DNA of 64,000 bases from a virus. The stretch lies in the IMG/VR virus record IMGVR_UViG_3300020056_000007; one strand, 5' to 3'. Shown here one piece after another: positions 588 to 62,540 of the stretch (within the stretch, counting starts at the first letter, position 1; each line of letters starts with the position of its first letter). Both the position numbers and the translations under genes were made by a program. Below the pieces are notes generated by a model. That model was given only the letters and a program-made list of their open reading frames with translations, did not search any database and had not been told where the DNA came from.

Positions 588-605
588 ACAATAAAAGGTT
601 TTGTT

Positions 606-3873: not shown

Positions 3874-4088
3874 AACCAAACACTAAATTTGAATTATCAA
3901 TTAGGGATATTGAAATCATAGAAGTTGCTTTAAGAGCAAAAGCTGGCCGTAGAGGTATTGCTATTGCTACTGGTTCATCCTCAAAAGAATTTAAAAAAGA
4001 AATGCATGAAATCCAAGATTTACTTGGTAGAATTCATAATCAAAAGCATTGGTTTCGTCCCAAAGATAAAACATATGTAGGTGGATAA
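3870..4088 (+). CDS. hypothetical protein
   Basis: 72 aa; ATGA and TAATG coupled to both neighbours. Confidence 0.7.
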   Translation: MKPNTKFELSIRDIEIIEVALRAKAGRRGIAIATGSSSKEFKKEMHEIQDLLGRIHNQKHWFRPKDKTYVGG

Positions 4089-8999: not shown

Positions 9000-9076
<77 letters not shown>

Positions 9077-9079
9077 ATA

Positions 9080-19033: not shown

Positions 19034-19040
19034 GTTTTCA

Positions 19041-19048
19041 TATAAATA
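19041..19048 (+). promoter_or_regulatory. T4-type late promoter
   Basis: TATAAATA upstream of the gp48-like gene. Confidence 0.75.
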
Positions 19049-19086
19049 AGAGAAAATAGTCTTACTTTTATTTATTAGGAAAACAA

Positions 19087-45569: not shown

Positions 45570-46291
45570 TTTCCTATAACCATAAACCTTTTATAACCAT
45601 TAGGCATATCAAGTGATCCTTTATATATTTTTTGTTTAATTCCTGATTTTTCTAATAATTCATCTTCATTTTCAACACAATTAATATGATCATTTACATG
45701 AAACATATTATTACTTTGTAAAGCAAATATTGTATTTTCTCTATAATTTTTATTTTCTAATATTTTAGGTAAGCTAGGCATATGTTCAGAAGAAGTATTA
45801 ATAACTACATGTGTTTTATCGTCATCCATAATTGGATCGAGTATGTTTTGACAATAATGATTTCCTGCAATATTATAAATTGACATAAAATTTTCAAAAA
45901 ACTTTTTCGTTTTAGGATCTATATCAATGTTATCAATTGATTCGATTTGATCTGAATTTTGTTTTAGCATTATAGATAATGGAGATCCAAACCAACCTCC
46001 TAATAGTTGAACTCTTATTTTCTCATTTAATTCAAAAAATGTTGGAATAACTAAAGATAATTTTTCAACTAACCATGTTTTAGATTCAATTTGGCTTGGG
46101 CCCATACTATCAAGAAAATGAACAATATCCATTTCTTTTTCGTATGCTATAGTCCATAACATTTGTAATAGATGTTTATTAATTTTATCTTCTAATAATG
46201 GTTTAGTAACTTTTAAATATGAATATGGATCAAGCTTTTCTTCGTTAAAAGCTTTCCATAACACATTCCATATTTCTTTTTCTATAATCAT
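45563..46291 (-). CDS. class I SAM-dependent methyltransferase-like
   Basis: SK.WL, LLGGWFG, IDID, VINTSSEH, ALQSNN, RFMVIG. Confidence 0.6.
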   Translation of the reverse strand: MIIEKEIWNVLWKAFNEEKLDPYSYLKVTKPLLEDKINKHLLQMLWTIAYEKEMDIVHFLDSMGPSQIESKTWLVEKLSLVIPTFFELNEKIRVQLLGGWFGSPLSIMLKQNSDQIESIDNIDIDPKTKKFFENFMSIYNIAGNHYCQNILDPIMDDDKTHVVINTSSEHMPSLPKILENKNYRENTIFALQSNNMFHVNDHINCVENEDELLEKSGIKQKIYKGSLDMPNGYKRFMVIGKC

Positions 46292-47781: not shown

Positions 47782-48781
47782 AAATATAATCCGCTATTTT
47801 TATATGAGTTTCATTATTTGGATGACTATCTCCACCAATAGTATCACTATTAGAATTTATCCAAGTTTTTTTTCTACTAGCATAGTTAGTAAATCTTTGT
47901 TGAATATTATTTTCTATTTCTGTCTGTATAAATTCTAAACCATATTTTTCGCATTTTAACTTAAGTGTTTCTGGTGGATCGCTAAATGTAATATCATTTT
48001 TATTCCATGTTATATTATTAGGTTTATCAATTGGCCAATTTATAAAATTTTTAATTTTATCATAATACATATTGTTAGGTAAATACTCAATTAATTCTTT
48101 TTTTGATTTGTAAGGCCAATTATGTGCATGTAAATTTTTTACAATTGTAAAATTTGTGCGTTTATCACCAGACCTTTCACGGAATGGAATCATTGTTTTA
48201 AAGTTTTCATTTTCTTGAAAATCTCCATTCATCAAATTAAGCTTATCTTGGCTTGTAACTCTCCACCAATTCCAATATAAATTCATCCCTTGAATTTGTA
48301 CATATGGTATATTATAATTTTCACATAAGATTTGAAACATGTAAAAATAGCGTAAAGAATTATGAATCCAATCTTCGTAATTTCCAGGCGACCAATTGTT
48401 GTTACCATGCTTATACGCAGATTTTTTCATTTTTTCTGGTAAATCATTTTTATATTCTGGATTAATCAAATGAGGTTCAGTTTCTTGAGCTTCATAATCA
48501 CGCCTATTTGATTCAGTCCACATATGTATAACTAAACCAATATCTTTATGATCTATATAATTTAATAAATCAAGAGTACGATTATAAATTCCGTTATTTC
48601 CAGAACCACCAATCGCTAGATTAATTAATTTCATATTTAATTTTTTGGCTAAATGAACAGGCCAAGGAGTGTAATTTATACTTTTTAAAAAATTGTGTTT
48701 TGATGATCGATCTTCTAAATTAGTATTGCGGCCATATGTATATGCAGAAAAACTACATCCATTGACAATTAAGTATTTCAT
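47768..48781 (-). CDS. SGNH/GDSL hydrolase-like (esterase/acyltransferase)
   Basis: NGCSFS, NLAIGGSGN, C-terminal DSHPN..H. Confidence 0.7.
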   Translation of the reverse strand: MKYLIVNGCSFSAYTYGRNTNLEDRSSKHNFLKSINYTPWPVHLAKKLNMKLINLAIGGSGNNGIYNRTLDLLNYIDHKDIGLVIHMWTESNRRDYEAQETEPHLINPEYKNDLPEKMKKSAYKHGNNNWSPGNYEDWIHNSLRYFYMFQILCENYNIPYVQIQGMNLYWNWWRVTSQDKLNLMNGDFQENENFKTMIPFRERSGDKRTNFTIVKNLHAHNWPYKSKKELIEYLPNNMYYDKIKNFINWPIDKPNNITWNKNDITFSDPPETLKLKCEKYGLEFIQTEIENNIQQRFTNYASRKKTWINSNSDTIGGDSHPNNETHIKIADYIYENL

Positions 48782-49596
48782 TTCATAACTGCTCCAGCTG
48801 CTACAATATCTAAAATATCTTCTGGAAATCTTTTTTCAATAAACTCTGTACATTTTTTACAGTATTCTTCAAATTCAAATAATTCATAATTCATCATTTT
48901 TTCAATATTTTCTGGTGTAATATCAAATTGTCTAGATCCATTAATTACTTTTTTACTACAATGTCTTAATTTTTTTATTTCAAAATCAATTACCGGAACC
49001 TTTGGAAATGCAGCGCACATTCTTCTATCAAACTCAGGCGCCTGATCTGTTTCAGTCCAATCAGGAGATCTTGAATTAAATTCTTTAAACTGTGTATTTT
49101 CATGATCTAATATACTTAAATCAAAATTTTCTCTGTATTTAAAATAATTTGGTGTCATAATTACTACGTTATAATTATTCAAATTATTTTTTTCAAAAAA
49201 TTCAAAGTTGCCAAGTTTTTCAATTTTATCTTCGTGGAAATCTAAAACTAAATGTTCCATATAATATATAGTTGGATCTTCTAAAACTTCAGAATATCTT
49301 TTACGTACAAATGAATTAGAAAGAATTGATACAACAAATGTATCATACTCTTTTATCATATTAATGACTTCTGTTAAATTTTTAACTAGGCCTGGTTCAC
49401 CGCCCAATATATTAAAAATTATTTTATGCCCTTTAAAACATTCAAGTGTATGTCGTAAAAAATCCATATCAACATGAAGATTTCTCATTTCCAAAGTCCA
49501 TGCTGTACAATAATGACATGACTTATTACAAGATTTTGTTAAATAAAAATCAACTCCTTTATATCCATCTTCAAGTAATTCACGTCTAGTTTTCAT
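48778..49596 (-). CDS. radical SAM protein
   Basis: CNKSCHYC, LGGEPG, extra C-terminal Cys (C...C...CKKC). Confidence 0.9.
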   Translation of the reverse strand: MKTRRELLEDGYKGVDFYLTKSCNKSCHYCTAWTLEMRNLHVDMDFLRHTLECFKGHKIIFNILGGEPGLVKNLTEVINMIKEYDTFVVSILSNSFVRKRYSEVLEDPTIYYMEHLVLDFHEDKIEKLGNFEFFEKNNLNNYNVVIMTPNYFKYRENFDLSILDHENTQFKEFNSRSPDWTETDQAPEFDRRMCAAFPKVPVIDFEIKKLRHCSKKVINGSRQFDITPENIEKMMNYELFEFEEYCKKCTEFIEKRFPEDILDIVAAGAVMK

Positions 49597-49958
49597 GTTG
49601 ATTTAACATATCCTTTTGTTTGCTCAGACTCTAAAAATATTTCTTTTTTATGTTGAGGCGAATTTCTTTTTCTACATACTAAATGGCATAATGGAAATCC
49701 TTTTCCTTTACTTAAATTATTACGAAATTCAATCCATTCTTCTGTTAAAAAGATTTCTTCTACAGAATCATAATCTTCTAATCTACTAGCTAACAATAGT
49801 TGCTGATATTCAAAATTCTGTCTATTTACTTGAGTATCAAGCCAACAACACGGAATAACTTCCATTCTGTTTGTTAAGGCAAAAGCTTCTTGTCGCCTAT
49901 CAAAACATTTAGGATCTAATTCACTATTTTCATCTATATCTGGAATTTCTCTACCCAT
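49593..49958 (-). CDS. stand-alone SPASM/twitch-like Fe-S domain
   Basis: PKC...VIPCCW...C..VC. Confidence 0.65.
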   Translation of the reverse strand: MGREIPDIDENSELDPKCFDRRQEAFALTNRMEVIPCCWLDTQVNRQNFEYQQLLLASRLEDYDSVEEIFLTEEWIEFRNNLSKGKGFPLCHLVCRKRNSPQHKKEIFLESEQTKGYVKST

Positions 49959-50580
49959 CGTGTAAACTCAAGCTATGTTCTTTAGATGGTCTATATGGAT
50001 CATGTTCACCCAGCCATCTTGATGAATTAACTAACATAAATTGTACTCCCGCTTCTTTTGCCATACTATGTGCTTCTTCAATTGTATGTTCATTATAGTT
50101 AAATACAATATATTGCCAAACAGGCAATTGTTCTAAATGATTTTTTGCTTCTTTACAAATTTCAAAAAGTTTTTCACCGTCTTGGTTTATTCTATACTTG
50201 TGAGAATCTTTTGGTAAACCATCTATTCCAAACCACCAACGAGCTCTAGGGTTTGCTTGAAATGCTTTAATATACCATTCCATTTTCTTATAACCAGTTG
50301 CGTGATGTACAGATGTAGATTTTGGTGTTTCAGTATTATAAAAAGAATGAATATGACTTAAAAAGTCTATAAATTTTGGATGATGAACTGGATCTGAAAC
50401 TTGTCCGCAAAAGTTTATATGAGTAAAGTGATCAACTATTTTTTTAAATTCATCAAAAGGTAAATCTTTTCCAGGAACTTTAAGTCCTTTATGAACAAAG
50501 GCAGATTGTCTTTGACACCTTGGACATTCTAAAGGGCACCTATGAGTAATATCAACATTAATATGCCTTCTTTTAAGCAT
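49951..50580 (-). CDS. radical SAM protein
   Basis: CPLECPRC, FCGQVSDP, FGIDG....YR, WQYIVF.YNEH; start uncertain (50580-50622). Confidence 0.9.
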   Translation of the reverse strand: MLKRRHINVDITHRCPLECPRCQRQSAFVHKGLKVPGKDLPFDEFKKIVDHFTHINFCGQVSDPVHHPKFIDFLSHIHSFYNTETPKSTSVHHATGYKKMEWYIKAFQANPRARWWFGIDGLPKDSHKYRINQDGEKLFEICKEAKNHLEQLPVWQYIVFNYNEHTIEEAHSMAKEAGVQFMLVNSSRWLGEHDPYRPSKEHSLSLHDG

Positions 50581-50594
50581 ACGTAATCCATTGT

Positions 50595-51680
50595 TTATAA
50601 TATCGTTTGAATTGTTGAACATATATTTTTCACTTCACTTTCTGTTAACCATGGATTTATTGGCAATGATAAAACTGTATTAGATGCTATTTCAGCATTT
50701 TTTCCTTTACTTTTTCTATATTTTATGTTATTATATAAAGAATTTTTAGATAGAGGTTTATCGTAGTGAATTTGTAATCTAATATCAAATTCACGTAATG
50801 CTTGTATTACCCAATCTCTTGTTTCTTGATCTTCGAACCTTATAACATATTTGTGATAATTATGATCTAAATTTGGATCATAAGCCTTGTCCATAATAAT
50901 TGGTAAACTATTTAATTCATTATTATATATTTTAGCAATTTCTTGTCTTTTATCTTGCCACGATCTCCAATGTGATAATCTAAAAGATATAATTTCAGTA
51001 TTAAGTCTATATGGTTTAGAATTATATCCAACAAATTCGAAATCAGAAATTTTTCCATGACGGCGAAGACCTTTAACATATTCAGCTTTACTTTCTTCAT
51101 CAGTCATAAAAATGCCGCCGCCATTAATTCCAGCAATAACTTTATTAGAATTAAAACTATAAGAGCTACAATTTCCTATAGTTCCAGCTTTTCTACCATT
51201 TAAACTAGATCCTAATGATTGAGCAGAATCTTCAATAAAAACAATATTCTTTTCTTTACAGAATTTTTCTATTTCTGCAGTATCAGTCATATTGCCAAAT
51301 AGATGAGTATAGATTAAAGCTTTAACTTTAGGGCTATACATTTTTTGAATTTCTTTTAATGTTATATGATATGAATTCAAATCAATATCACAAAACACAG
51401 GAGTTGCGCCAACCATGGAAATGCAAGAAGATGAAGAAATCCACGAAAAATTACTTACTAAAACTTCATCACCTGGTCCAACATTGTGTGCTAATAACGA
51501 AAATTTTAATGCATCAGTAGCAGATGCAACTGCAACACAATATTTTCTACCATTAAAACTTGATATATCATTTTCTAATTTTTCTATACCAGTTTCATAA
51601 TTTTCATTCATATTGTCATTAAATATTTTCATATAATGACTAAAATTTGTTACAAATTCTTTATGCCAATTGTCGTACAT
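50595..51680 (-). CDS. DegT/DnrJ/EryC1/StrS PLP-dependent sugar aminotransferase
   Basis: SATDAL, GPGDEV, GATPVFCD, IEDSAQSLG, YSFNSNK, LSLPINP. Confidence 0.93.
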   Translation of the reverse strand: MYDNWHKEFVTNFSHYMKIFNDNMNENYETGIEKLENDISSFNGRKYCVAVASATDALKFSLLAHNVGPGDEVLVSNFSWISSSSCISMVGATPVFCDIDLNSYHITLKEIQKMYSPKVKALIYTHLFGNMTDTAEIEKFCKEKNIVFIEDSAQSLGSSLNGRKAGTIGNCSSYSFNSNKVIAGINGGGIFMTDEESKAEYVKGLRRHGKISDFEFVGYNSKPYRLNTEIISFRLSHWRSWQDKRQEIAKIYNNELNSLPIIMDKAYDPNLDHNYHKYVIRFEDQETRDWVIQALREFDIRLQIHYDKPLSKNSLYNNIKYRKSKGKNAEIASNTVLSLPINPWLTESEVKNICSTIQTIL

Positions 51681-52524
51681 TATCGTATGCTTTCAAAATA
51701 GGATTAAGGTTTTGTTTTTGAAAATCTCTATTCCAATAAACGTATCCTCCATCGTGTAAAGTTTTATCTCTTTCATATATCATATTTATGTTGTAATATC
51801 TACATTCCTGTATAATTCTTGGAGCAGGATCAAATTGTTCTTTACAATAAACATATGTATTAAATGTTCCTAATAAATTTTTTACTGGAGCCCATAAATT
51901 ATTTAAGCTTTTATCAACATAAAAATCATCATATGCTACTATTCCATAATTATCGTAATTATTAATAAGTTTTTGAGCAGTTATATAATAATCTTTATTT
52001 GTTCCAAGGAAAAGATTATCTACTAATATATTTTCAACTGGATCTTGATAAATTTCGAAATTAATTATTTTTTCAAATTGTTCTCCAACTCCTTTTAAAT
52101 ATACTTCGTGATCACATAAATCATATGTTGATTTAACGTTAAAATATTTTAATGCTTCAGTGTATCCATTTACATTTTGTTCTGAATACACTGATATTAT
52201 TATATCAAATAATAAGTGCAATGTAAACCGTTGATTTTCATTATATTCATTTATATTTTCGTATGGAATAGAAAGCATATTTCTACCCAATATAAGAGTC
52301 ACATCTCCTGCATTAGGAATATAATCATTAATATGAATATATTTAACGTAAATATATTTCTCTTTGAGAGAATTAATATAATCCTCTTCTTTAAAATTTC
52401 CTCTAGTAATAATAATTAAATTTGTTTCTATACCGGCTTCATTTAAAGCACAGCAATATTCATAACTATAATATAGTAATCCATCACATGGTTTACTAGT
52501 ACATACAATATTTAAACAACCCAC
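51661..52524 (-). CDS. hypothetical protein (possible GT-B-like fragment)
   Basis: 287 aa within operon; FDPAPRIIQEC weakly like GT-B C-terminal motif. Confidence 0.5.
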   Translation of the reverse strand: MGCLNIVCTSKPCDGLLYYSYEYCCALNEAGIETNLIIITRGNFKEEDYINSLKEKYIYVKYIHINDYIPNAGDVTLILGRNMLSIPYENINEYNENQRFTLHLLFDIIISVYSEQNVNGYTEALKYFNVKSTYDLCDHEVYLKGVGEQFEKIINFEIYQDPVENILVDNLFLGTNKDYYITAQKLINNYDNYGIVAYDDFYVDKSLNNLWAPVKNLLGTFNTYVYCKEQFDPAPRIIQECRYYNINMIYERDKTLHDGGYVYWNRDFQKQNLNPILKAYDNVRQLA

Positions 52525-53129
52525 TTAATAATCTCATCAACATCAGGTTTTTCATGCGCTTCAAGAATTGGAGGAGCAGCTTTATATCCTAATTGCATAC
52601 TAAATAATACGGGCTGTTTTTGTAAAAATTTAAATTCTTCGTCCCATCTTTTATCTTGTAATTGGTCTGGAAAGCATAATAAGTAAGAAACATTAATATC
52701 TTTTTCTATGCATAAACCAGTAAGTAGTTTACAAAACATTCCAATTTCTATAGCTGTTTCCATTTTTTGTTGAGGTCCAGCAAAATTATTTGGATCGCAT
52801 GTTTTATATAATTCCGCGTTTTTTCTCATAGCCTTTGCAATAGATGCGGGTGGGTATACTAATCTTGGAGTAAACATTAACACATATGGGGCTTTTGCAT
52901 TTGTATTATTAAATGAATTTGTATGTGTAGTCATATCATAAAAAGTTTCTTTAAGCTGTTTTTGTTTTGGACCTAAAACATAAACACTATATGGCATTAG
53001 CCTTTGTTTTGAAGCAACCAACTTATATGCTGTTTCAAGTAAAATTTGCACATCAGTTTCAGATGGATATATATCTTGTTGATATATTCTTATCTGTTGT
53101 CTTTTTGAATATACTTTTTCTATTGTCAT
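52512..53129 (-). CDS. nitroreductase-family flavoprotein
   Basis: KRQQIR.Y, LE.A....S.Q...PY.V.V, APYVL, EIGM, LGY. Confidence 0.75.
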   Translation of the reverse strand: MTIEKVYSKRQQIRIYQQDIYPSETDVQILLETAYKLVASKQRLMPYSVYVLGPKQKQLKETFYDMTTHTNSFNNTNAKAPYVLMFTPRLVYPPASIAKAMRKNAELYKTCDPNNFAGPQQKMETAIEIGMFCKLLTGLCIEKDINVSYLLCFPDQLQDKRWDEEFKFLQKQPVLFSMQLGYKAAPPILEAHEKPDVDEIIKWVV

Positions 53130-53860
53130 TTAAACGCCCATTCTTTTTCTTTACACCAAAAACATTTTCCACATGGTTTTGAAAAATAATTTGTTTCTTC
53201 TTCTGAACCTACACACGAACTTGTTAAAGGATATAATGTATCCATAAGTTCATGTTCTTTATAAACATTCGCTACAAACTTCTTATCGATATTTATATAA
53301 GGTTGATATATTGTTTTAAACCATGGCATTTGATTTCTAGTATCTCTACGCCTTTCAGCTAATTCATAAAAATTATTTTTTCTTTGTTCTTCTATTGGAG
53401 GATTACAAGTCATTCCTGTAATCATTAAGGCATTATTCCATTTTTTTCTAAGTTCGTTTTCAAAATGCCTTTTCATTAATATTTTTGTGAGTCCAGATAT
53501 AGAACTAGCTCTTTCAACTTTTTTTCCATCAATAATAACTTTTTCTTCTTCCCATTTTTCTTTAGCAAGATTTCTCCATTCTTTATCATTAATGTCAAAT
53601 TCAAAAACTTCATGCTCTAATATTTTTTGCTTTGGAAATTTTTCTTTCATAAATTGAATAATATCTTTAGCACATAAGTAATCAAATGGGGCCGTTTTGT
53701 CCCAACCGGTATACGGAATAATTTCAATTTCCGGAAAATTATTACAGATTAAATAAAACAATGATGCCGAATCTAAACCTCCCGATAAAGCAAGTAATAC
53801 TTGACTTGGAATTTTTTTATCAAATAAGTCTATTTCTTGGTTTCCATAAGATAATTTCAT
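53126..53860 (-). CDS. QueC-like PP-loop ATP pyrophosphatase
   Basis: LSGGLDSA; T.SC...PCGKCFWCKE zinc motif. Confidence 0.8.
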   Translation of the reverse strand: MKLSYGNQEIDLFDKKIPSQVLLALSGGLDSASLFYLICNNFPEIEIIPYTGWDKTAPFDYLCAKDIIQFMKEKFPKQKILEHEVFEFDINDKEWRNLAKEKWEEEKVIIDGKKVERASSISGLTKILMKRHFENELRKKWNNALMITGMTCNPPIEEQRKNNFYELAERRRDTRNQMPWFKTIYQPYINIDKKFVANVYKEHELMDTLYPLTSSCVGSEEETNYFSKPCGKCFWCKEKEWAFK

Positions 53861-55068
53861 GCTAGCTCCGGATATATTTCAAATAAGTTTGTTTTATATA
53901 GTTCGTCAGTTTTACGAATGTATTGAATAGCTTTATTATATTCATCTTCGTTTCTATCTAATAATAAACTATTATAAACTATTTCGTTATTAATGTACAT
54001 AGGCATCAATTTATTTTTTATTTTATCAGGTAAATTTTTTGGATGAAGTTCTTTTGGATCATCTACTACATATAATCTTTGGTCCAAATTGTTTTCATTA
54101 CACCATTTTTCTAATTCTTTAAATCTTAAAATACTTAAAAGTGATACAGTTGAAAATACTTGCATATGTACATTTTCATATTCTTTTAACAAATTATAAT
54201 TGTACATAATATCTTTCCAAAAAGATCTCCTTCTAATATAATCGTTATATTTTCCAAACCCATCTAAAGAAATATTGATTTGTAGAAACTCAAAATGTTT
54301 TATATAATCTAAAATGCTTTTATTTCCTGATCCTAATATTGTAAGATTAGAATTCATTTCTAATATTATATCTTCTCCACCCCAATCTGATTCTATTACT
54401 TTATCTAAATATTCAAATTGTTTTTTAAGAAGAAATGGCTCTCCTCCTTGTAATACAATTATTCTTGTGTATGGAATAATCTTTTCTATATTATCCAAAA
54501 ATCTATTTTGATTTTCTCCTCCTTTAAAAGGTTGCGGTTTTTCAAATGATACTAATTCATAATAATTATTTTCTCTTGAAGTTTTTTCTCGTACAGATGA
54601 ATTAAATGGATGACACATGTAACAATCTAAATTACAAGTAGTTCCAAATTGTCTAAATTGGAGTATTAAACCATTTTGTCGTAAAGATGGTTTACCATTT
54701 CTATAAAAATCATTGGTGATTTTAATAACTTCATCAATATCATTTATTTTGTTAGATAATTGTATTCTTTCAGAGTTGCCGTGGGTTTTTTCTTGTTCAA
54801 TACATCTTTGACATTGATGCTCTAATATTTTTTTATCTTTATCATCACCCAAACCAAGCGCAGCTCTCCGACAACTTTGATATACATTTCCAAAATACCA
54901 ATCAAGGGGATCCGTGTTTGATACTGTTTCTTTATTTGATCCTCCAACACAGCAAACGGTATATTCTCCAGTTGTGTTTGTGTAAATATGATCAAATAAT
55001 CTTGGACACCACCATGTTTGTTTTCTTAGATAATCTAAACTGCGTTCATTTTTAAGATCATTATTCAT
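53857..55068 (-). CDS. radical SAM protein with N-terminal twitch/SPASM-like Cys cluster
   Basis: CP...VCC...CQRC; CNLDCYMC; GGEPF; SLDG...DYIR. Confidence 0.92.
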   Translation of the reverse strand: MNNDLKNERSLDYLRKQTWWCPRLFDHIYTNTTGEYTVCCVGGSNKETVSNTDPLDWYFGNVYQSCRRAALGLGDDKDKKILEHQCQRCIEQEKTHGNSERIQLSNKINDIDEVIKITNDFYRNGKPSLRQNGLILQFRQFGTTCNLDCYMCHPFNSSVREKTSRENNYYELVSFEKPQPFKGGENQNRFLDNIEKIIPYTRIIVLQGGEPFLLKKQFEYLDKVIESDWGGEDIILEMNSNLTILGSGNKSILDYIKHFEFLQINISLDGFGKYNDYIRRRSFWKDIMYNYNLLKEYENVHMQVFSTVSLLSILRFKELEKWCNENNLDQRLYVVDDPKELHPKNLPDKIKNKLMPMYINNEIVYNSLLLDRNEDEYNKAIQYIRKTDELYKTNLFEIYPELA

Positions 55069-56459
55069 TCATAATATTCTTTCAATTCTGGAAATACATC
55101 GAATAAATGCATTTCCCATTTGGTTCCAATATATGCTTTATCTTGTTTTAGCAAATAATTAAATGTATCTTGAATACTTATATCTGGTTCTGGGTCTTTA
55201 GATAGTGCTGCTTGAATATCTGGCCAATCTTTATATTTTGGTAATAAATTTTCTTTTATTTTATCTGGTAAATTATTAACACGTAAATGTTTTGGTCTTT
55301 CAATCATTGCCCAGTTTATTTGATGAATCTTATCATTTCCCTTACAATAATCAATAACTTCATAAAAACGAAGTACACTTAAAAAAGAAACTAAACCGTT
55401 AAAATCAACATCAATATTAGGATACTTATTACACATATCGATATTATTTTCTAACTCATTCCAATTAGTTCTTCTTCTCATATATTCTATAGATTTTCCG
55501 ATTCCATCAACTGAACCTACCATAGCAATATTTTTAAAATGAGGGACATAATTAAAAAAATTATGTTTACCAGCAACCATTGTAGTAAAATTAGTTTGAT
55601 ATTTTATTCTAATATCTTTAGAATCTCCAGTCTCAACTAAAGCATCTAATAACTCATATTGTTTTTTCATAATTAATGGTTCACCACCAATAATTTTTAT
55701 GCTTCTTATATAAGGTGCTAATTCTACAACCTGTTCAACTATTCCCTTTGTTCTATCTTTACTTACATTTTCGTATATAGCTTTTTTTCTATCGAGAGAT
55801 CCCCAAATTTTTTCATCCCATACACCCTTTTTAGCCATATCCATGCGCATTGATGAATTAGCATGAATACACATATGGCAATCTAAATTACATTCTGATC
55901 CAAAAACTTTTAGTTGAATTTCAAATACTCTATCTTCAAAATCAAATATTCCACTTGCTTTAAACATATCTGCAGATTTTTCTATTCCATCCCAATGTTC
56001 CCAGTCATTAGTATGCATTTTCATACAGTTTGTTCTACGTGATCTTCCATATCTTTTTTCATCATCAACACACCTTTTACATATTTTATTTACTGCTTCA
56101 AAATTAGAGTTTGGATCAAGCATTTCTTCACGAATACTATTCATGTATTCGCTTTCTTCCATCCATTCTCTTAATGAAACATCTTCAACTTTTACACCAG
56201 AATCCGCACCAAAGCAACATGCTTTATAGTTGCCATTAATTTCTGAATATACTTGAGTAAAGGGAATAGAACAAAACCATATTTTTTTGTTCTTAGTCAG
56301 ATTTAATATAGAATTTGGATCTTTTTCTTTATTTTTACCAGTTGGGGAAAGTTTGGCAAACCAAGCTGAAGTATCATATTCTCCGGGTTTTGTTTTATCG
56401 CCTGGACCACCACGCAATAAATTATTCTTCAAAACTTCTTTTTTCACATATATCTCCAT
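55065..56459 (-). CDS. radical SAM protein with N-terminal twitch/SPASM-like Cys cluster
   Basis: CSIPF...ACC...CKRC; CNLDCHMC; GGEPL; SVDG...EYMR. Confidence 0.92.
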   Translation of the reverse strand: MEIYVKKEVLKNNLLRGGPGDKTKPGEYDTSAWFAKLSPTGKNKEKDPNSILNLTKNKKIWFCSIPFTQVYSEINGNYKACCFGADSGVKVEDVSLREWMEESEYMNSIREEMLDPNSNFEAVNKICKRCVDDEKRYGRSRRTNCMKMHTNDWEHWDGIEKSADMFKASGIFDFEDRVFEIQLKVFGSECNLDCHMCIHANSSMRMDMAKKGVWDEKIWGSLDRKKAIYENVSKDRTKGIVEQVVELAPYIRSIKIIGGEPLIMKKQYELLDALVETGDSKDIRIKYQTNFTTMVAGKHNFFNYVPHFKNIAMVGSVDGIGKSIEYMRRRTNWNELENNIDMCNKYPNIDVDFNGLVSFLSVLRFYEVIDYCKGNDKIHQINWAMIERPKHLRVNNLPDKIKENLLPKYKDWPDIQAALSKDPEPDISIQDTFNYLLKQDKAYIGTKWEMHLFDVFPELKEYYE

Positions 56460-56474: not shown

Positions 56475-56482
56475 TATTTATA
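56475..56482 (-). promoter_or_regulatory. T4-type late promoter driving the radical SAM/carbamoyltransferase operon
   Basis: TATTTATA on + equals TATAAATA on -, 15 nt upstream of the ATG at 56459. Confidence 0.7.
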
Positions 56483-56503
56483 TCATTTACAAAGCGATTT
56501 TTT

Positions 56504-56511
56504 TATAAATA
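56504..56511 (+). promoter_or_regulatory. T4-type late promoter
   Basis: TATAAATA upstream of the 124-aa structural gene. Confidence 0.8.
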
Positions 56512-56562: not shown

Positions 56563-56937
56563 ATGGCCCAATACGAAGAATTTACGATCGACCAAGGCAC
56601 AGATGTGGCCATTGAAATTCATTTAGTTGATGAACAAGGTAATGCTAAAGATCTTACCAACCACACAGTTAAAGCCCAATTAAGAAAAAATTATTCATCA
56701 GCAACCGCAACTGATTTTAATTCTATTATTGCAACTCCACCTACTGATGGTATTGCAACCCTTTCATTAACAAATACAGAAACACAAGCTTTAGATAAAG
56801 GTAGATACGTTTATGACGTTGAACTTTCTTTCTTAGATAGTGATAATCAACCAGTAATTGAAAGAATCCTTGAAGGTAGAGTTCAAGTTACTCCTGGTGT
56901 AACAACGCTTGATCATAGTGGCGGAGGAGTTAACTAA
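56563..56937 (+). CDS. small virion structural protein (BppU-N-like fibre adaptor)
   Basis: IDQGTD......DLT.....AQLRK.Y.S...G...LSL....T..L..GRYVYDVE...RILEG...VTPGVT. Confidence 0.75.
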   Translation: MAQYEEFTIDQGTDVAIEIHLVDEQGNAKDLTNHTVKAQLRKNYSSATATDFNSIIATPPTDGIATLSLTNTETQALDKGRYVYDVELSFLDSDNQPVIERILEGRVQVTPGVTTLDHSGGGVN

Positions 56938-59900
56938 TGGCAACTTTTGTAAAAAAGGTATTAGTTGGAACACCAGTAAGAAGAGTTACAGCTGGTTCAT
57001 TTGATATTAGTAACATCGGTGGTGTTAATATTTCAGGCGATGCTGGAACTGGTTATAACGTTGGTGAAGGTGTACATAATGATATTTTGGTTTATGACTC
57101 ATCAGCATCTGAATATCGTAATCTTAATACGTTAAGACAATTAAAAATAGATCATTTTACAATTGATAGTAATAAAATTAGTGTTGATTTTAATGATCCA
57201 ACTATTTTAGATGAAATGTACATCTCTGCTCCAGATGGTGTATTTATTGACGGAAGATTAGAAGTTGATCGTATTAATCAAAGACAACTTGCTGTTTTTG
57301 ATGATAGTTCACTTACAACTAAATTTTATGTAGATCAAGAAATTGATAAGGTAAAAGAAGTTACCTTTACAATGGATGATGGATTTACTGACTCTGTTCA
57401 AATATATGATGGTGAAACTATCACTATGGCCGGTGGACGAGGACTATCTACTCGTGGTGTAAAAGTTGGCAATGTTCTTACTATTACAACTGACCTTGAT
57501 TCTACAGGCGCAGATTCTGGAACATTTGGTTCTTCTATTCGTATTCCAATTCTTACAACCAATTCTCGTGGTCAAATTACAACAATTTCAGATGTAGCGG
57601 TTGCTTCACTTGATTCGATTAATTATGATTCTTCAAATGGGTCTGGTGTACTTAGTATTAATACATCAGATGGTGGACTATATCAAACAACCATTAATTT
57701 AAATCCATTTACAACAACTGATCTTGAAGAAGGTACAGAAATACCTCCTACTGCATCTTTCACATATTCAGTTACTGCATCTGGCAATTTTTTCTATAGT
57801 GTAACTGGCACTGATAGAAATGGATCTATAAGTGGCGGTGATCCAGCTCTTACAGTTAGAGTTGGTGATACACTAACATTTAATAACTCCGTTTGGGAAG
57901 ATCATCCATTATTAATTAAAACAGTTGCTGGAACAGGAATTAATGATTTAGCTTCTGGAGTAACAGGTCAAGGTACGGCAACCGTAACTTGGACGCCTGA
58001 TACAGCTGGAACATATTACTATCAATGCCGTGTCCATGAAGATATGGTTGGAGTCATTACAGTATTAGCCCGACAAGAAGCAGCGCAATACTATTCAAGA
58101 GCGAGATTTGATTCTGCATTAGGCGATGGCACTTCTATTGCAACAATTCGTGGTTATGTAAGTGGATCTGGTGACCTTCAATACGATTCTGCAACAGGTG
58201 TATTCTCAGTTGACGTTCAACAAGTTTATGGTAGAGATGATTTTGACTCTGACCTAGACGATGCTATGAATAGCAATTCGAATTTGCATTGGTATCCAGA
58301 TAGCAACTTCTTTGATCTTACACCAATTAATGATTCAACAGCTGGCACATATGGTTCACCAACACAAATGCCAGTATTTACTGTTGATAGCTATGGTCGT
58401 ATTGATAGCATCGGTGAAGTTTTAGTTGCTTCAGTAGATAGTACACGTTGGATCTCAAGTACAAATACTTATAGAATTAGTACTGGTGACGGTCAAGTAT
58501 TTAATACTATTATCGATAGCTTTAATAGTAACGTTTTAATACAAGACGATATATCATTAAACTTTGGTGCAGGTAATGATCTTGTAATTAAACATAATAC
58601 AACTGCTAACTTAGATGAAATTACTGCTACAATTCCATTAGTAATTAGTTCAAGTGACTCAATTTCTATTGATGCCACAAGCGGCAATATTCATATTGGC
58701 GGAGATCTTTTACCATCAGTTGATTCTACATATGATCTTGGTTCACCAACTAAAAAATGGAAAGATCTATATTTATCTGGTCAAACAATTAATCTTGGAA
58801 CAGTAAAATTAGAAGATAGCCAGGGATCACTTTCTATTAAAACTGCAAGTGGTTTAGCTGGAGATTTAAGTCTTAAATATTTAAGAGCTGACTCTGCATA
58901 TATTAGTCAGTTAAATGTTGATAGCATTAGTATTTCTCAGTTGAATCTATCTAATGCTGATATGGATAGCCTATACGTTGATAATTTTAATGCTGTTATC
59001 GGCGATATCGATAATGCTACATTAGGTCAAGTTACTATCGACAGCGCTTATATTACACAGCTAAACGTAAGTCAACTAGATGTTGATAGCATTAATATTG
59101 TTGATGGTAAAGCTTATTTTGATAGTGCTTATATTACACAGTTAAATGTAGCAACAGCAGACATTGATACTTTTACATCAGCTAATGCTATTTTAGATAG
59201 TGCTTATATTGGTCAGCTTAATGTAAGTCAAGCAGATGCGGATAGTTTACATGTTGATCAATTAAATGTTGGCACAGCAGATATTGATAATGCTATATTG
59301 GGTCAAGTTACTATTGATTCAGCACATGCTACGCAATTAGACGTTTCGAATGCTCATATTGATGCTGCTACCGTTGATTCTGCAAGAATTGAAAACTTAA
59401 GCGTAGACATTTTAAATGCCGATTCAGTATCGGCAGACTTTATAAGATTTGATCGAGTTCTTTGGGATGATAATACTAAACCTACAACTGATGAAGGTAC
59501 AGTATACTATAATTCTGGACCTGATGCTCTTGTTTATAAACCTGCCACTGCTTCTCCAATTAAAATTGGTCAAGACGCAGTAACACGAGTTTATAACAAC
59601 ACTGGCGCTATGATTCCTCGTGGTTCTCCAGTTTATGTTACTGGTGCGACTAACGACTTCCCAACAATTGCGAAAGCACAAGCAAACGATATCACTACTA
59701 TTGATGCTACTATTGGTGTTCTAAAAGACAGTATTAATACAAATTCTTTTGGTCTCGTACTAAATAGAGGTTTACTTGGAAGATTAGACACTTCGTCATA
59801 TAGTGTTGGTGATTTACTATTTGTATCTGCAGATAGCGCTGGTAAGTTTACTACAACTGCTCCAACATATCCAAACTTTGCATATGAAGTTGGTAGAGTT

Positions 59901-62540
59901 CTAGTTGTAGACTCAGCGGGTGGAGCTAATGTTGGTGGTTGTGTACAAATTGCACAACAAAAAGAATTTTTCGAACAATTAAGAGTTACTGGTTCTGGCC
60001 GGATAGATCAAAACTTTACAATTGGTGGTAACCTTACTGTTATTGGTTCACAAATCCAAACTACAACTCAAAGTTTGGCGGTTGACGATACAGTTATTGA
60101 AGTAGGTGCGGGTGATACTATTGGCGCAGCTGGAACAAGTTTCGGTGGTACTGGACAGAATGATGGTGTATTCATTGGTCATTATACCGGTGATAGTGTT
60201 ATTAATTATCATGTAAGAATTGATTCTGCGGGTGGATCAGGAGATACAATTGAATGGTCTTACGATAGCCAATATGGAGTATTACAAACATTCGATTCTG
60301 CAGGTGGTACTGGACCTACTAAATTTGTATTATCAGCAGGTTCTTTAGTAGCTGCATTAAGTGATGGTATAAGTATTAAGTTTACTGCTGCTACGGGTCA
60401 TGATTTAAACGATAGTTGGGCTGGAGAAGCTTCACCAATTAATGTTCAAATTGGTCTTGTTGGTAATTATAATCCAGATGATGATTCACATGCATATTCA
60501 GGTTTAATTAGAGATCCAGCAGATAATAGATGGAAATTCTTCCAACAATATTTACCAGATCCACAAGCAAATGTTAATTTTGCCGATCCTTCATTAGAAT
60601 TTGCTCCAGTTCAAGTTGGAACATTATATGCAAGTACAGTAGATGCTAATTTAACTGGTAATGTTACTGGTACAGTATCTGATATTTCTAATCATACAAC
60701 TACACAACTTGCTGAAGGTACAAATCTATACTTTACTGATGCAAGAGTAAAAGCTGCAATTGCTGATTCAGCTGTAGCTGTAAGATTTGATGCTGATTCT
60801 GGCCAAATTAAACAATTTATTTCAGACTCTGCCTATATTGGTCAACTCAATGTAAGTCAATTAGATGTCGATAGCTTATACGCAGATCAAATCAATATTA
60901 GTCAAGCCGATGTTGATTCACTTTATGTCGATCAATTAAACGTAAGTCAAGCCGATGTTGATTCACTTTATGTCGATCAATTAAATGTAAGTCAATTAGA
61001 CGTTGATAGCATTAATATTGTTGATGGTAAAGCTTATTTTGATAGTGCTTATATTGGCCAATTAAACGTAACAATTGCTGATATAGACACATTAACTTCG
61101 GCCGATGCTATATTAGATAGTGCTTATATTGGCCAACTTAATGTTGCAACTGGAGATATCGACACCCTTACATCAGCTAATGCTTCACTTGATTCTGCTT
61201 ATGTTGGACAATTAAATGTCATAACTGGTGATATTGATAATGCTACATTAGGCCAAGTAACGATTGATTCTGCTTATATCACTCAAATAAACGTTTCACA
61301 AGGTGATATTGATAGTTTACATGCTTCTCAATTAAATGTTGATAGTGCTTATATTACACAATTAAATGTAAGTCAAGCGCATATCGATAGTTTATATGCA
61401 GATAATATTAACTTAGCATTAGTTGATATTGATACCTTTACTGCTGATTCAGCTATTATTACCAACATATCAGGTACTAGTGCAAACTTTACTACAATTG
61501 AAAGATCAGGTGCAACAGATTATAATGGAGTCTGGGGTTCAGCTTCATTAGTACCAATAATTACACTTAATTCATCCGGTTTTGTTGATAGTATTGGAAC
61601 AACTTCTGTTGCTGGTGTAACAGCATTTGCATGGGATTCAGCAACTTCAACAGCTACAATTAGTACAGCAGATGGTGGATCGTTTACGTCGGTTATTAAT
61701 GGTTTTGGTAGTATTACAAGTGATCTTATACCATCACTTGATTCAACATATGATCTAGGTTCTGTAAGTAATAAATGGAAAGACTTATATCTTTCTGGAT
61801 CTACTATTACCCTTGGCAATGTAAAATTACAAGATAGCGCCGGTGGCTTAAAAGTTATGCACACATCAGGTGCTATGACACAAGTTAAAGCTGGTCATCT
61901 TAAAGCAGATTCAGCCGCAGTTGATCTATTAGGTGTATTAAACGATTCAAATGGTCATTATCGTATATCACATAATACGGTAATGCGTTCATATGAAAAT
62001 AGAGATTCAAATAACCTAATATCTGGAATTACTCAAGATTCAAATAATCAAGGGCTTGTAAATATTTACGTAAGAACTGGATTTAAAACTGGAGCACATA
62101 GATATTGGAAGCAAGGATCTTCTAAAGGCTACTTTATAGCCTATGATTCAGACGATTTGTACACAGCGAAAGAAATCCAAGCACCACATTTAGATTTATT
62201 ACCAGGCGTTACATATCGATTCCACCATAATGACTCATCTATGTCAACGCACGATATTAGATTTTATTGGGATGATGCAAAATCTGGATTAGTTTCAGAT
62301 AGTGCAGCAGATATAATTTATGCTGGAGTTGCTGGTAATATAGATGTTGGTAATTCATATGCACAAATTAAAGTAAAACAAGATGGTCCTAGATCATTAG
62401 CATATCAATGTATTAATCATCCATATATGGGTAATAGTTTAAATACAAATACAACAGGTGGATCAAGAATTCTTGGAACATCAACAGGTATTAAAGTTGA
62501 TGGTGATATTGATGGAATTATTGATGGTGGAACATATTAG
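56937..62540 (+). CDS. giant repetitive tail fibre protein with cupredoxin-like domains and DS-rich repeats
   Basis: 1867 aa; DSAYIxQLNV repeats, YDLGS...WKDLYLSG x2, YYYQC..H..M.G, C-terminal IDGGTY. Confidence 0.8.
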   Translation: MATFVKKVLVGTPVRRVTAGSFDISNIGGVNISGDAGTGYNVGEGVHNDILVYDSSASEYRNLNTLRQLKIDHFTIDSNKISVDFNDPTILDEMYISAPDGVFIDGRLEVDRINQRQLAVFDDSSLTTKFYVDQEIDKVKEVTFTMDDGFTDSVQIYDGETITMAGGRGLSTRGVKVGNVLTITTDLDSTGADSGTFGSSIRIPILTTNSRGQITTISDVAVASLDSINYDSSNGSGVLSINTSDGGLYQTTINLNPFTTTDLEEGTEIPPTASFTYSVTASGNFFYSVTGTDRNGSISGGDPALTVRVGDTLTFNNSVWEDHPLLIKTVAGTGINDLASGVTGQGTATVTWTPDTAGTYYYQCRVHEDMVGVITVLARQEAAQYYSRARFDSALGDGTSIATIRGYVSGSGDLQYDSATGVFSVDVQQVYGRDDFDSDLDDAMNSNSNLHWYPDSNFFDLTPINDSTAGTYGSPTQMPVFTVDSYGRIDSIGEVLVASVDSTRWISSTNTYRISTGDGQVFNTIIDSFNSNVLIQDDISLNFGAGNDLVIKHNTTANLDEITATIPLVISSSDSISIDATSGNIHIGGDLLPSVDSTYDLGSPTKKWKDLYLSGQTINLGTVKLEDSQGSLSIKTASGLAGDLSLKYLRADSAYISQLNVDSISISQLNLSNADMDSLYVDNFNAVIGDIDNATLGQVTIDSAYITQLNVSQLDVDSINIVDGKAYFDSAYITQLNVATADIDTFTSANAILDSAYIGQLNVSQADADSLHVDQLNVGTADIDNAILGQVTIDSAHATQLDVSNAHIDAATVDSARIENLSVDILNADSVSADFIRFDRVLWDDNTKPTTDEGTVYYNSGPDALVYKPATASPIKIGQDAVTRVYNNTGAMIPRGSPVYVTGATNDFPTIAKAQANDITTIDATIGVLKDSINTNSFGLVLNRGLLGRLDTSSYSVGDLLFVSADSAGKFTTTAPTYPNFAYEVGRVLVVDSAGGANVGGCVQIAQQKEFFEQLRVTGSGRIDQNFTIGGNLTVIGSQIQTTTQSLAVDDTVIEVGAGDTIGAAGTSFGGTGQNDGVFIGHYTGDSVINYHVRIDSAGGSGDTIEWSYDSQYGVLQTFDSAGGTGPTKFVLSAGSLVAALSDGISIKFTAATGHDLNDSWAGEASPINVQIGLVGNYNPDDDSHAYSGLIRDPADNRWKFFQQYLPDPQANVNFADPSLEFAPVQVGTLYASTVDANLTGNVTGTVSDISNHTTTQLAEGTNLYFTDARVKAAIADSAVAVRFDADSGQIKQFISDSAYIGQLNVSQLDVDSLYADQINISQADVDSLYVDQLNVSQADVDSLYVDQLNVSQLDVDSINIVDGKAYFDSAYIGQLNVTIADIDTLTSADAILDSAYIGQLNVATGDIDTLTSANASLDSAYVGQLNVITGDIDNATLGQVTIDSAYITQINVSQGDIDSLHASQLNVDSAYITQLNVSQAHIDSLYADNINLALVDIDTFTADSAIITNISGTSANFTTIERSGATDYNGVWGSASLVPIITLNSSGFVDSIGTTSVAGVTAFAWDSATSTATISTADGGSFTSVINGFGSITSDLIPSLDSTYDLGSVSNKWKDLYLSGSTITLGNVKLQDSAGGLKVMHTSGAMTQVKAGHLKADSAAVDLLGVLNDSNGHYRISHNTVMRSYENRDSNNLISGITQDSNNQGLVNIYVRTGFKTGAHRYWKQGSSKGYFIAYDSDDLYTAKEIQAPHLDLLPGVTYRFHHNDSSMSTHDIRFYWDDAKSGLVSDSAADIIYAGVAGNIDVGNSYAQIKVKQDGPRSLAYQCINHPYMGNSLNTNTTGGSRILGTSTGIKVDGDIDGIIDGGTY
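59082..61055 (+). repeat. 54-bp identical direct repeat pair (59082-59135 and 61002-61055) plus 45-bp tandem duplication at 60901-60990
   Basis: GTTGATAGCATTAATATTGTTGATGGTAAAGCTTATTTTGATAGTGCTTATATT occurs twice, 1920 bp apart. Confidence 0.9.

What the first reader, a model, noticed from the sequence alone, without database searches (positions are those of the whole stretch)
56937..62540. Virion proteins are studded with an Asp-Ser motif: candidate sequon for a phage-encoded virion O-glycosylation system
Seen: by hand count the 1867-aa fibre has about 66 DS dipeptides but only about 10 SD and about 10 DT. DS is also frequent in the 1156-aa fibre (about 19, e.g. INELHDS), gp8 (7), the gp9-like protein (5), gp7 (4) and the VrlC-like protein (7), while gp32 has none. 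It occurs in helical, beta-repeat and globular contexts. Ser is encoded by both TCN and AGY, so selection acts on the protein. Known: D-(S/T)-(A/I/L/V/M/T) is the Bacteroidetes general O-glycosylation sequon, and many sites here read DSA, DSI, DSL or DSV. Inference: the two late-expressed enzyme clusters in this window (about 7-9 GT-like genes, aminotransferase, carbamoyl-, methyl- and acyl-transferases, radical SAMs) build and attach a tailored glycan at DS sites. The result would be a densely glycosylated tail for shielding, stability or receptor binding.
Basis: partly seen in the sequence, partly recalled or inferred. Interest (0 to 1): 0.92.

Follow-up and report, generated by a model that had tools for sequence, protein, structure and literature searches.

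The report
Asp-Ser-rich marine phage tail fibre
A giant tail fibre of an uncultured marine T4-like phage, and its whole protein family, holds about three times too many Asp-Ser pairs; the excess is real and under selection, but it sits at tight turns and does not track the sugar-enzyme clusters, so a structural motif is somewhat more likely than a sugar-attachment code.

Summary
The hand count is exact: the 1867-aa fibre has 66 DS, 10 SD and 10 DT, against 20.6 DS expected. After keeping one copy of every internal repeat, 30 DS remain against 10.6 expected (0 of 20,000 shuffles). Both serine codon families are used. Eighty-seven homologous fibres show the same 2.8-fold excess, and DS pairs are better conserved than lone D or S. 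Only the two or three long fibres are enriched, not virion proteins in general.

DS lies on outer corners of two pentapeptide-repeat blocks and at strand exits before Gly turns. The same central domain in other phages keeps the Asp but not the Ser.

The window is a pelagimyophage-type "host recognition cluster". The 12-kb radical-SAM/aminotransferase cluster is absent from all 80 relatives' fibre flanks. GT25 genes occur in 4 of 10 relatives' fragments, and no single GT family is shared. However, some GT-A-like gene sits just upstream of the fibre in 26 of about 30 relatives, and late-promoter motifs precede both clusters. The Bacteroidota analogy fails.

My odds: structural turn/corner motif 0.45, modification sequon 0.3. 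This scan has seen the same motif before on other DNA, in at least 16 genomes.

The parts
56937..62540 (+). 1867-aa modular tail fibre: 66 DS against 20.6 expected
   Evidence: 120 homologues
58857..59441 (+). Pentapeptide-repeat block 1 (aa 641-835) with 11 DS. DS occupies the outward positions i+1 and i+2 of every second to fifth pentapeptide (spacing 10, 15 or 25 residues).
   Evidence: PDB sequence matches to Np275/Np276-derived pentapeptide proteins, E 1e-7
60747..61466 (+). Pentapeptide-repeat block 2 (aa 1271-1510) with 15 DS
   Evidence: self-BLAST to block 1
59469..60716 (+). Central globular domain (aa 845-1260) with 9 DS, five of them in DSAG(G/K) loops. AF2 pLDDT is about 85-94. 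The domain is shared with DS-poor fibres of other phages.
57471..57725 (+). Module X copy 1 (aa 179-263). Further copies lie at 58305-58529 and 61524-61727. It is a beta-hairpin fibre module with variable DS/NS/TT at homologous turns.
   Evidence: self-BLAST
58623..58856 (+). Module Y copy 1 (aa 563-640), with the LDSTYDLGS...KWKDLYLSG motif. Copy 2 lies at 61728-61937.
   Evidence: weak Pfam End_tail_spike match
57744..58076 (+). Cupredoxin-like insert (aa 270-380) with candidate ligands H323, C364, H367, M370
62034..62537 (+). C-terminal domain (aa 1700-1867, pLDDT about 85), weakly cupredoxin-like (C1825, H1828, M1831), with 4 DS
56563..56937 (+). 124-aa ORF overlapping the fibre start by one base. 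It matches phrog_3304 'L-shaped tail fibre assembly' and is conserved upstream of the fibre in 26 relatives.
56475..56511 (.). Back-to-back TATAAATA motifs (56475-56482 on the minus strand, 56504-56511 on the plus strand) in the 103-bp divergent spacer between cluster 2 and the fibre operon
   Evidence: reading them as late promoters is an inference from T4
39276..42746 (+). 1156-aa second fibre (DUF5907 repeats, INELHDS repeat): 19 DS against 7.0 expected
44305..56459 (-). Cluster 2, an inverted low-GC (27-28%) enzyme island. It holds 2 GT-A-like ORFs (44305-45569), a methyltransferase-like ORF (45563-46291), a carbamoyltransferase, a DegT aminotransferase, 3-4 radical SAM enzymes and a PP-loop protein. 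It does not co-vary with DS.
198..5961 (+). Cluster 1: a GT8-like ORF (606-1394), a methyltransferase (1391-1963), 3 GT25 ORFs (2511-4735) and a weak GT8 match (4713-5321). A TATAAATA motif lies at 97-104. In relative L002 its homologues (56-73% identical) fill the 10 kb upstream of the fibre, ending about 3.5 kb before it; a GT8-like pair lies directly upstream there.

Best explanation
The ORF is a modular tail fibre in the 'host recognition cluster' of a pelagimyophage-type marine T4-like phage.

Asp-Ser is a conserved two-residue structural unit of this fibre family. It marks the outward corner of pentapeptide-repeat coils. Elsewhere it marks the exit of a beta-strand just before a tight turn, with the context hydrophobic-D-S-x-G. 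There the Asp side chain caps the turn and a small hydroxyl residue follows. The unit was multiplied by internal duplication and shuffling of fibre modules and is kept by purifying selection.

On this reading the neighbouring enzyme islands are interchangeable cargo of the hypervariable cluster and are not needed for the motif.

Shown: the excess, its conservation, its location at turns and corners, and its lack of co-variation with the named clusters. Inferred: the turn-capping role itself.
For: 1. Location. 26 DS sit at positions i+1/i+2 of pentapeptide repeats. In parts of the AF2 models with pLDDT of 70 or more, 14 of 14 DS are at strand or helix ends or in loops, just like the other Asp residues (28 of 30).
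2. Context. A hydrophobic residue precedes DS in 49 of 66 cases (background 40%). Gly is at position +3 (the second residue after Ser) in 11 of 40 non-repeat sites.
3. Position-specific conservation. DS at residue 992 is kept in 71 of 87 family members and at residue 1110 in 74 of 87, at only 33-45% overall identity. Pair retention is 54-92% in close homologues.
4. In DS-poor homologues the Asp at these turns is usually retained (DA, DN, DG, DQ), so it is a structural Asp.
5. Module-bound behaviour. Within one clade of the central-domain tree, the domain has 2-4 DS whether the rest of the fibre is DS-rich or DS-poor.
6. No enzyme tracks the motif.
7. Other exposed virion proteins of this phage are not enriched.
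Against: 1. The same fold elsewhere does without the Ser, so the fold does not require it.
2. The excess spans at least five different structural contexts in two unrelated fibres.
3. Generic turn chemistry would also favour Asn and Thr. Instead NS is 0.73, DT 0.53 and ES 0.39 of expectation. Lost DS sites go to anything rather than to DT (1.5%) or NS (0.9%).
4. DSAGG loops appear as insertions absent from other lineages.
5. T4 gp34 and gp37 (O/E 1.3-1.4) and the fibres of HTVC008M, C48C1, P-SSM2 and S-MbCM100 lack the excess.
6. Only secondary structure of monomer models was available, so no side-chain geometry was checked.
Confidence: 0.45

Rival explanations
1. DS is the acceptor motif of a phage-directed, cytoplasmic, late-expressed modification of the fibres. 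The most likely form is O-glycosylation of the Ser by GT-A-type enzymes encoded beside the fibre genes, giving a decorated fibre surface. The particular enzymes differ between relatives.
For: - Selection acts on the protein.
- The motif behaves all-or-none and is specific for Asp and for Ser.
- At conserved Asp turns of the central domain (residues 992, 1110, 1159) DS-poor homologues have DA, DN or DQ where the DS-rich family has DS, and the DS-rich family carries DS-bearing loops that are gaps in DS-poor homologues; the direction of change was not inferred.
- The sites lie at loops, strand ends or solenoid corners (secondary structure and repeat positions only; solvent exposure was not computed).
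- 26 of about 30 relatives with at least 5 kb of upstream flank carry GT-A-like genes just upstream of the assembly ORF and fibre. These are a GT8-like pair, the 44305/44898 family, or family H with an invariant Y-x-D-x-D motif and an Atlas score of 0.97 to Nucleotid_trans/GT8 clusters.
- Divergent TATAAATA motifs link cluster 2 and the fibre operon.
- A 1090-aa GT-B + GT-A + FkbM-methyltransferase protein sits inside the structural block.
- Precedents exist: Che8 virion glycans (cited in PMC11256854 and PMC12619734) and SdgB acting on DSD (PMC8561734).
Against: - No GT family is shared by all DS-rich phages. Families H, GT8-like and 44305 are mutually undetectable by hhalign.
- Four loci have no GT-like gene within 10 kb.
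- The multi-GT protein is absent from 5 of 5 large relatives' fragments.
- GT-rich hypervariable clusters are a general, already described feature of these phages, so adjacency may be incidental (PMC7029224).
- DS-poor comparison loci belong to other phage types, so the contrast is confounded by relatedness.
- Only the fibres are enriched.
- Only 5 independent contrasts were available, and none was significant.
- No modification has been observed.
Confidence: 0.3
2. DS serves a non-covalent function specific to this lineage. Examples are cation (Ca/Mg) or water-mediated bridges between fibre chains or between fibre and tail, or a repeated weak binding site for a host surface glycan.
For: The motif is specific for the charged Asp over Asn. 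It lies at loops, strand ends and solenoid corners (exposure not computed). It is restricted to one fibre family. It is confined to fibres rather than other virion proteins.
Against: No known ion- or sugar-binding motif of this form was matched. Ser is a poor metal ligand (own knowledge). Nothing here tests this reading directly.
Confidence: 0.12
3. The excess is an artefact of repeats or of composition.
For: 26 of the 66 DS are in two repeat blocks, and three further modules are duplicated.
Against: After collapsing all repeats, 30 DS remain against 10.6 expected (0 of 20,000 shuffles). SD is at 10, below its expected 20.6. The rest of the contig has 90 DS against 114 expected. Both Ser codon families are used.
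Confidence: 0.02

Closest known systems
Host recognition cluster (HRC) of pelagimyophages and cyanomyophages (Zaragoza-Solas et al. 2020, PMC7029224)
   Same: [quoted passage not shown] It holds several long fibres plus glycosyltransferases (GT8 is the commonest) and radical-SAM cassettes. Here VrlC-like ends at 37389 and the neck protein lies about 42 kb downstream. The published mean HRC size in pelagimyophages is 44.6 kb.
   Different: In the passages of the paper retrieved here the GTs are read as modifiers of host LPS, and no Asp-Ser excess in the fibres is mentioned. The host of this phage is not established. Its gp6 is 42% identical to phage C48C1 and 32-33% to Melnitz, HTVC008M and cyanophages.
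General O-glycosylation of Bacteroidota, sequon D-(S/T)-(A/I/L/V/M/T) (PMC12871550)
   Same: Asp immediately precedes the hydroxyl residue, Glu is not accepted or is depleted, and a small or hydrophobic residue follows in 71-77% of sites.
   Different: That system is periplasmic. It transfers a glycan built on undecaprenyl phosphate to non-cytoplasmic proteins only, and it uses Thr almost as much as Ser. Here the substrates would be virion proteins, which in tailed phages assemble in the cytoplasm (established knowledge, not tested here). DT is depleted. No Wzy_C/PglL-type transferase is present in the contig. Nothing points to a Bacteroidota host.
SdgB/SdgA O-GlcNAcylation of staphylococcal Ser-Asp repeats (PMC8561734, PMC3794999)
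   Same: A glycosyltransferase recognises Ser flanked by Asp and densely decorates a fibrous surface protein.
   Different: The minimal motif is DSD in long SD repeats, whereas here DS is followed by D in only 2 of 66 sites. SdgB is a GT-B enzyme. The only GT-B domain in this contig lies in a 1090-aa multidomain protein outside the window.
Mycobacteriophage virion glycosylation (Che8; Freeman et al. 2023, as cited in PMC11256854 and PMC12619734)
   Same: Phage-encoded glycosyltransferases decorate the phage's own virion proteins.
   Different: There the glycans sit at the C-termini of capsid and tail-tube subunits. No dispersed dipeptide sequon and no fibre glycosylation are described in the passages I could read. 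The primary paper is not held in the library.
Pentapeptide-repeat proteins (Rfr fold, e.g. Np275/Np276)
   Same: Two blocks (aa 641-835 and 1271-1510) follow the five-residue period, with small or hydrophobic residues at i-2 and i. They match solved pentapeptide proteins at E 1e-7.
   Different: The blocks are embedded in a phage fibre. They form a regular super-repeat (10, 15 or 25 residues between successive DS; 15 commonest, 5 of 10 and 6 of 14 intervals in the two blocks) that places D-S at one corner, which is not part of the family consensus A(D/N)LXX.

Membership tests
Bacteroidota general O-glycosylation substrates | Motif D-(S/T)-(A/I/L/V/M/T) with Ser and Thr both used | tested here: not met
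   DS is 3.2-fold enriched and 47 of 66 sites have an allowed residue at +1. However, DT is 10 against 18.3 expected here and 0.53 of expectation in 87 relatives. PMC12871550 reports only a slight preference for Ser.
Bacteroidota general O-glycosylation substrates | Substrate is a non-cytoplasmic (exported) protein glycosylated in the periplasm | not tested
   No signal-peptide or localisation test was run. By established knowledge tailed-phage virions, fibres included, assemble in the cytoplasm, so the feature is expected to fail. The requirement is stated in PMC12871550.
Bacteroidota general O-glycosylation substrates | An oligosaccharyltransferase of Wzy_C/PglL type, or a Bacteroidota host, is available | tested here: not met
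   PF04932 is absent from the 105-kb contig, which is 62% complete. The nearest phages infect OM43, SAR11 and cyanobacteria. A scan of GTDB genomes gave no host clue.
SdgB-type SD-repeat glycosylation | DSD minimal motif in long Ser-Asp repeats | tested here: not met
   DS is followed by D at 2 of 66 sites, SD is 10 against 20.6 expected, and there are no SD runs.
SdgB-type SD-repeat glycosylation | Dedicated GT-B (GT4) enzyme | tested here: inconclusive
   The window has none. One Glycos_transf_1 domain lies in a 1090-aa multidomain protein 12 kb beyond the window. It is not conserved in 5 DS-rich relatives.
   No match at E up to 0.1 in the contig, which is 62% complete.
Pentapeptide-repeat family | Tandem five-residue repeats matching solved Rfr-fold proteins | tested here: met
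   phmmer matches to 4yfo, 4yc5 and 2j8k over aa 636-826 at E 1e-7 to 2e-4. Homologue P0006 carries precomputed PF13599.
Host recognition cluster of pelagi- and cyanomyophages | Variable island between VrlC and the neck genes holding fibres, GTs (GT8) and radical-SAM cassettes | tested here: met
   The VrlC-like DUF4815 protein lies at 33409-37389. Fibres, GT-like and radical SAM genes lie downstream. The neck protein and gp15 lie about 42 kb downstream. The definition is in PMC7029224.
Phage virion glycosylation (Che8 type) | A glycan covalently bound to a virion protein | not testable with these tools
   This needs mass spectrometry or glycan staining of virions or of co-expressed protein.

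The most novel reading that the evidence does not exclude
A clade of abundant, uncultured marine T4-like phages writes a two-residue Asp-Ser sequon onto turn and corner positions of its tail fibres (exposure not computed). It decorates these serines late in infection with glycans built by the interchangeable GT-A-type enzymes of its host recognition cluster. Swapping the enzyme cassette would then change the fibre's sugar coat without changing the fibre.
Probability: 0.3. Interest if true: 0.85.

Novelty: new variant of a known kind. Interest (0 to 1): 0.55.

Why it matters
Tail fibres decide which cells a phage can infect, and phages of this type prey on the most abundant bacteria of the ocean. 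The many glycosyltransferases in their host recognition clusters have so far been explained only as modifiers of the host surface.

A strongly selected, clade-wide Asp-Ser motif on exactly the proteins encoded next to those enzymes gives a concrete and cheap test: look for a mass shift on one well-folded 415-aa domain. A positive result would be the first sequon-directed glycosylation of a phage fibre. It would also reassign a large class of 'LPS' auxiliary genes. A negative result would define a new turn and corner motif useful for modelling these fibres, most of which have no solved relatives.

Tried and rejected
- Repeat or composition artefact: rejected.
- DNA-level motif: rejected, because TCN and AGY codons are used about equally.
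- General property of phage fibres: rejected. T4 gp34-37, HTVC008M, C48C1, P-SSM2 and S-MbCM100 are not enriched.
- Fold-intrinsic motif of the central domain: rejected. CRP-6 and 20 other fibres with that domain have DS O/E of about 0.9.
- Cluster 2 as the DS system: rejected as a necessary component.
- GT25 cluster: present in only 4 of 10 DS-rich fragments.
- The 1090-aa multi-GT protein as a conserved partner: rejected.
- Maf-like enzyme: none found.
- Foldseek against the PDB found only the cupredoxin inserts and nothing for the central domain.
- Profiles of families H and I against PDB sequences found nothing. Pfam and PHROGs also found nothing for H and I.
- hhalign did not join family H to the GT8-like family.
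- Independent contrasts on the central-domain tree: only 5 pairs, with the same direction in 2.6-2.8 of 5 at sites 992 and 1110, and not significant.
- ARAGORN found no tmRNA in the contig held here.
- The primary paper on Che8 glycosylation is not held.
- AF2 models of the N-terminal half and of the pentapeptide blocks have pLDDT of about 40-55, so DS positions there were read only from sequence periodicity.

Full report
**1.

The ORF at 56937-62540 encodes 1867 aa with exactly 66 DS, 10 SD and 10 DT. Composition predicts 20.6 DS. No shuffle of 5000 exceeds 36, and DS is the most over-represented of all dipeptides.

A third of all Asp and a third of all Ser lie in DS. Ser codons in DS are TCN 36 and AGY 30, so selection acts on the protein.

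**2. Anatomy of the fibre**

A sequence search of solved structures shows that aa 641-835 and 1271-1510 are pentapeptide-repeat blocks, and that aa 302-376 is a cupredoxin (Foldseek).

Self-BLAST adds three copies of a hairpin module X and two copies of a module Y. A central domain (aa 845-1260) folds with pLDDT of about 90, and a C-terminal domain with about 85. The rest is modelled poorly as a monomer.

Keeping one copy of every repeat leaves 1189 aa with 30 DS against 10.6 expected (0 of 20,000 shuffles).

**3. Which proteins are enriched**

The 1156-aa fibre is enriched: 19 DS against 7.0 expected, and 14 against 6.3 after masking its INELHDS repeat (p 0.002). The 1767-aa protein just beyond the window is mildly enriched (20 against 12.3).

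The gp8-like, 339-aa, 347-aa and VrlC-like proteins are not clearly enriched. Three other structural proteins have no DS. The remainder of the 105-kb contig has 90 DS against 114 expected.

'Virion proteins are studded' is thus true only of the long fibres.

**4. A family trait**

Of 120 homologues from metagenomes, nearly all have DS O/E of 2-4.5. Pooled over 87 of them, DS is 3945 against 1408 expected (2.8-fold). By contrast ES is 0.39, DT 0.53, DD 0.48 and NS 0.73 of expectation.

In alignments, DS is retained at 59% of homologue positions. Within it D is retained at 71% (53% for other D) and S at 63% (38% for other S). Lost sites become almost anything: DT 1.5% and NS 0.9%.

The excess is not general to fibres. 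T4 gp34 and gp37 are at 1.3-1.4, and the fibres of HTVC008M, C48C1, P-SSM2 and S-MbCM100 are at 0.4-1.75.

**5. Where DS sits**

- In the pentapeptide blocks, DS occupies the two outward positions after the central hydrophobic residue. It recurs every 10, 15 or 25 residues.
- Elsewhere the context is hydrophobic-D-S-x-(G). A hydrophobic residue precedes DS in 49 of 66 cases.
- In confidently modelled parts, 14 of 14 DS lie at strand or helix ends or in loops. So do 28 of 30 other Asp residues.

DS is therefore not buried in mid-strand ladders. Its positions are also classic tight-turn positions.

**6. The central domain as a natural experiment**

The central domain also occurs in fibres that are not DS-rich, such as Roseobacter phage CRP-6 and 20 IMG/VR fibres.

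- None of the nine DS of this window is conserved in CRP-6 at 35% identity.
- Across the family, DS is nearly fixed at residues 992 (71 of 87) and 1110 (74 of 87).
- DS-poor homologues keep the Asp but have DA, DN, DG or DQ at those positions.
- The DSAGG loop at residue 1120 is an insertion.

This argues that the fold does not need the Ser. On the other side:

- The DS-poor group has DS at two other turns where the DS-rich group has NS or DT.
- DT stays fixed at residue 1060.
- Within one clade the domain has 2-4 DS whether the rest of the fibre is rich or poor.
- The tree needs at least 5 rich/poor switches. Five contrasts cannot reach significance.

**7. The enzymes**

The window matches the published 'host recognition cluster' of pelagimyophages. 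This is a variable island between VrlC and the neck genes, rich in fibres, GT8-type transferases and radical-SAM cassettes, which the authors read as host-LPS modifiers (PMC7029224).

TATAAATA motifs lie upstream of cluster 1 (97-104). They also lie back to back between cluster 2 and the fibre operon (56475-56482 on the minus strand, 56504-56511 on the plus strand). Eight or nine of the 12 motifs in the window sit just upstream of a same-strand start. This fits late expression, as an inference from T4.

Co-variation fails for the named clusters:

- Most of cluster 2 has no homologue within 10 kb of any of 80 relatives' fibres: the carbamoyltransferase, the DegT aminotransferase, the 272-, 403- and 464-aa radical SAM enzymes and three unassigned ORFs. 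Five of its ORFs (44305-46291, 49593-50622, 53126-53860) recur in 1-6 loci.
- DegT is in 0 of 5, radical SAM in 2 of 5 and GT25 in 4 of 10 DS-rich fragments.
- In the closest IMG/VR relative, cluster-1 homologues lie in the 10 kb upstream of the fibre in place of cluster 2, with a GT8-like pair directly upstream.

Even so, 26 of about 30 relatives with enough flank carry some GT-A-like gene just upstream of the small assembly ORF and the fibre. These genes fall into three groups:

- a GT8-like pair (weak Pfam matches);
- the 44305/44898 family (phrog GT; hhalign 98.6-98.8%);
- family H, with an invariant Y-x-D-x-D motif and an Atlas score of 0.97 to Nucleotid_trans/GT8 clusters (a lead), paired with a cupin-like family I.

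These families are not detectably related to one another. The DS-poor controls are other phage types. A 1090-aa GT-B + GT-A + FkbM protein lies in this phage's structural block but not in five relatives.

**8. Comparison with known systems**

- The Bacteroidota sequon shares Asp at -1 and a hydrophobic residue at +1. It fails on Thr usage and on the enzyme type; the periplasmic site conflicts with cytoplasmic virion assembly (established knowledge, not tested here), and nothing points to a Bacteroidota host (PMC12871550).
- SdgB needs DSD repeats (PMC8561734).
- Che8 shows that phage virions can be glycosylated by phage enzymes, but at C-termini (PMC11256854, PMC12619734).

**9. Verdict**

The excess is real, selected and specific to this fibre family. 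It sits where tight turns and solenoid corners are, and no enzyme tracks it. I therefore rate a lineage-specific structural unit at 0.45.

The Asp- and Ser-specificity, the all-or-none turnover, the DA/DN/DQ-versus-DS difference between DS-poor and DS-rich homologues at conserved Asp turns, and the recurrent late-expressed GT-like neighbours keep a modification sequon at 0.3.

Earlier follow-ups of the same motif in other genomes of this scan were split in the same way.

Noticed in passing
window 57744-58076 and 62034-62537; also ORF 62602-63840: The fibre carries two cupredoxin-like domains, each with a full type-1 copper ligand set (H323, C364, H367, M370 and H1772-region, C1825, H1828, M1831). 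The next ORF has a Pfam Copper-bind domain. Blue-copper folds on a phage fibre are unusual.
   Followed up: partly
G000:C1:96090-99362 (locus L089:11659-14931), 12 kb beyond the window: A 1090-aa protein in the structural block joins Glycos_transf_1 (GT-B), Glycos_transf_2 (GT-A), a weak Anp1-like stretch and an FkbM methyltransferase. The layout recalls (own knowledge, not checked here) the multidomain enzymes that build capsid glycans in chloroviruses. It is not conserved in five relatives.
   Followed up: partly
loci L011:7620-9058, L016:4124-5544 and 13 others: A conserved gene pair lies upstream of DS-rich fibres in 15 relatives. Family H is GT-A-like with an invariant Y-x-D-x-D motif. 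Family I has invariant W-H-x-N, a later Y-H and an Arg; the Atlas gives weak leads (0.87) to 2OG oxygenases and to viral Asp/Asn beta-hydroxylase-like clusters. The pair is absent from this window.
   Followed up: partly
window 56937-62540: 14 of the 17 AGC serine codons of the gene directly follow an Asp codon (13 GAT-AGC, 1 GAC-AGC). This codon-context bias is unexplained by the protein motif alone.
   Followed up: no
window 18527-19108 (-): An ORF with a TnsA-like endonuclease N-terminal domain (Pfam E 1e-20) lies among the baseplate genes. It overlaps the divergent start region of the next operon.
   Followed up: no
window 8791-9164: Three clustered tRNA genes: Arg-TCT, Pro-TGG and Leu-TAA (ARAGORN on the contig at 29222-29595).
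   Followed up: no
L089:6487-8535 (G000:C1:90918-92966): A 682-aa collagen-triple-helix protein (7 Pfam Collagen stretches) lies in the same cluster, next to GT25-family genes elsewhere in the genome. GT25 also includes collagen galactosyltransferases (own knowledge).
   Followed up: no
window 44001-56000: Cluster 2 has 27-28% GC against about 34% for its surroundings, and it lies on the opposite strand. This looks like a recently acquired cassette.
   Followed up: partly
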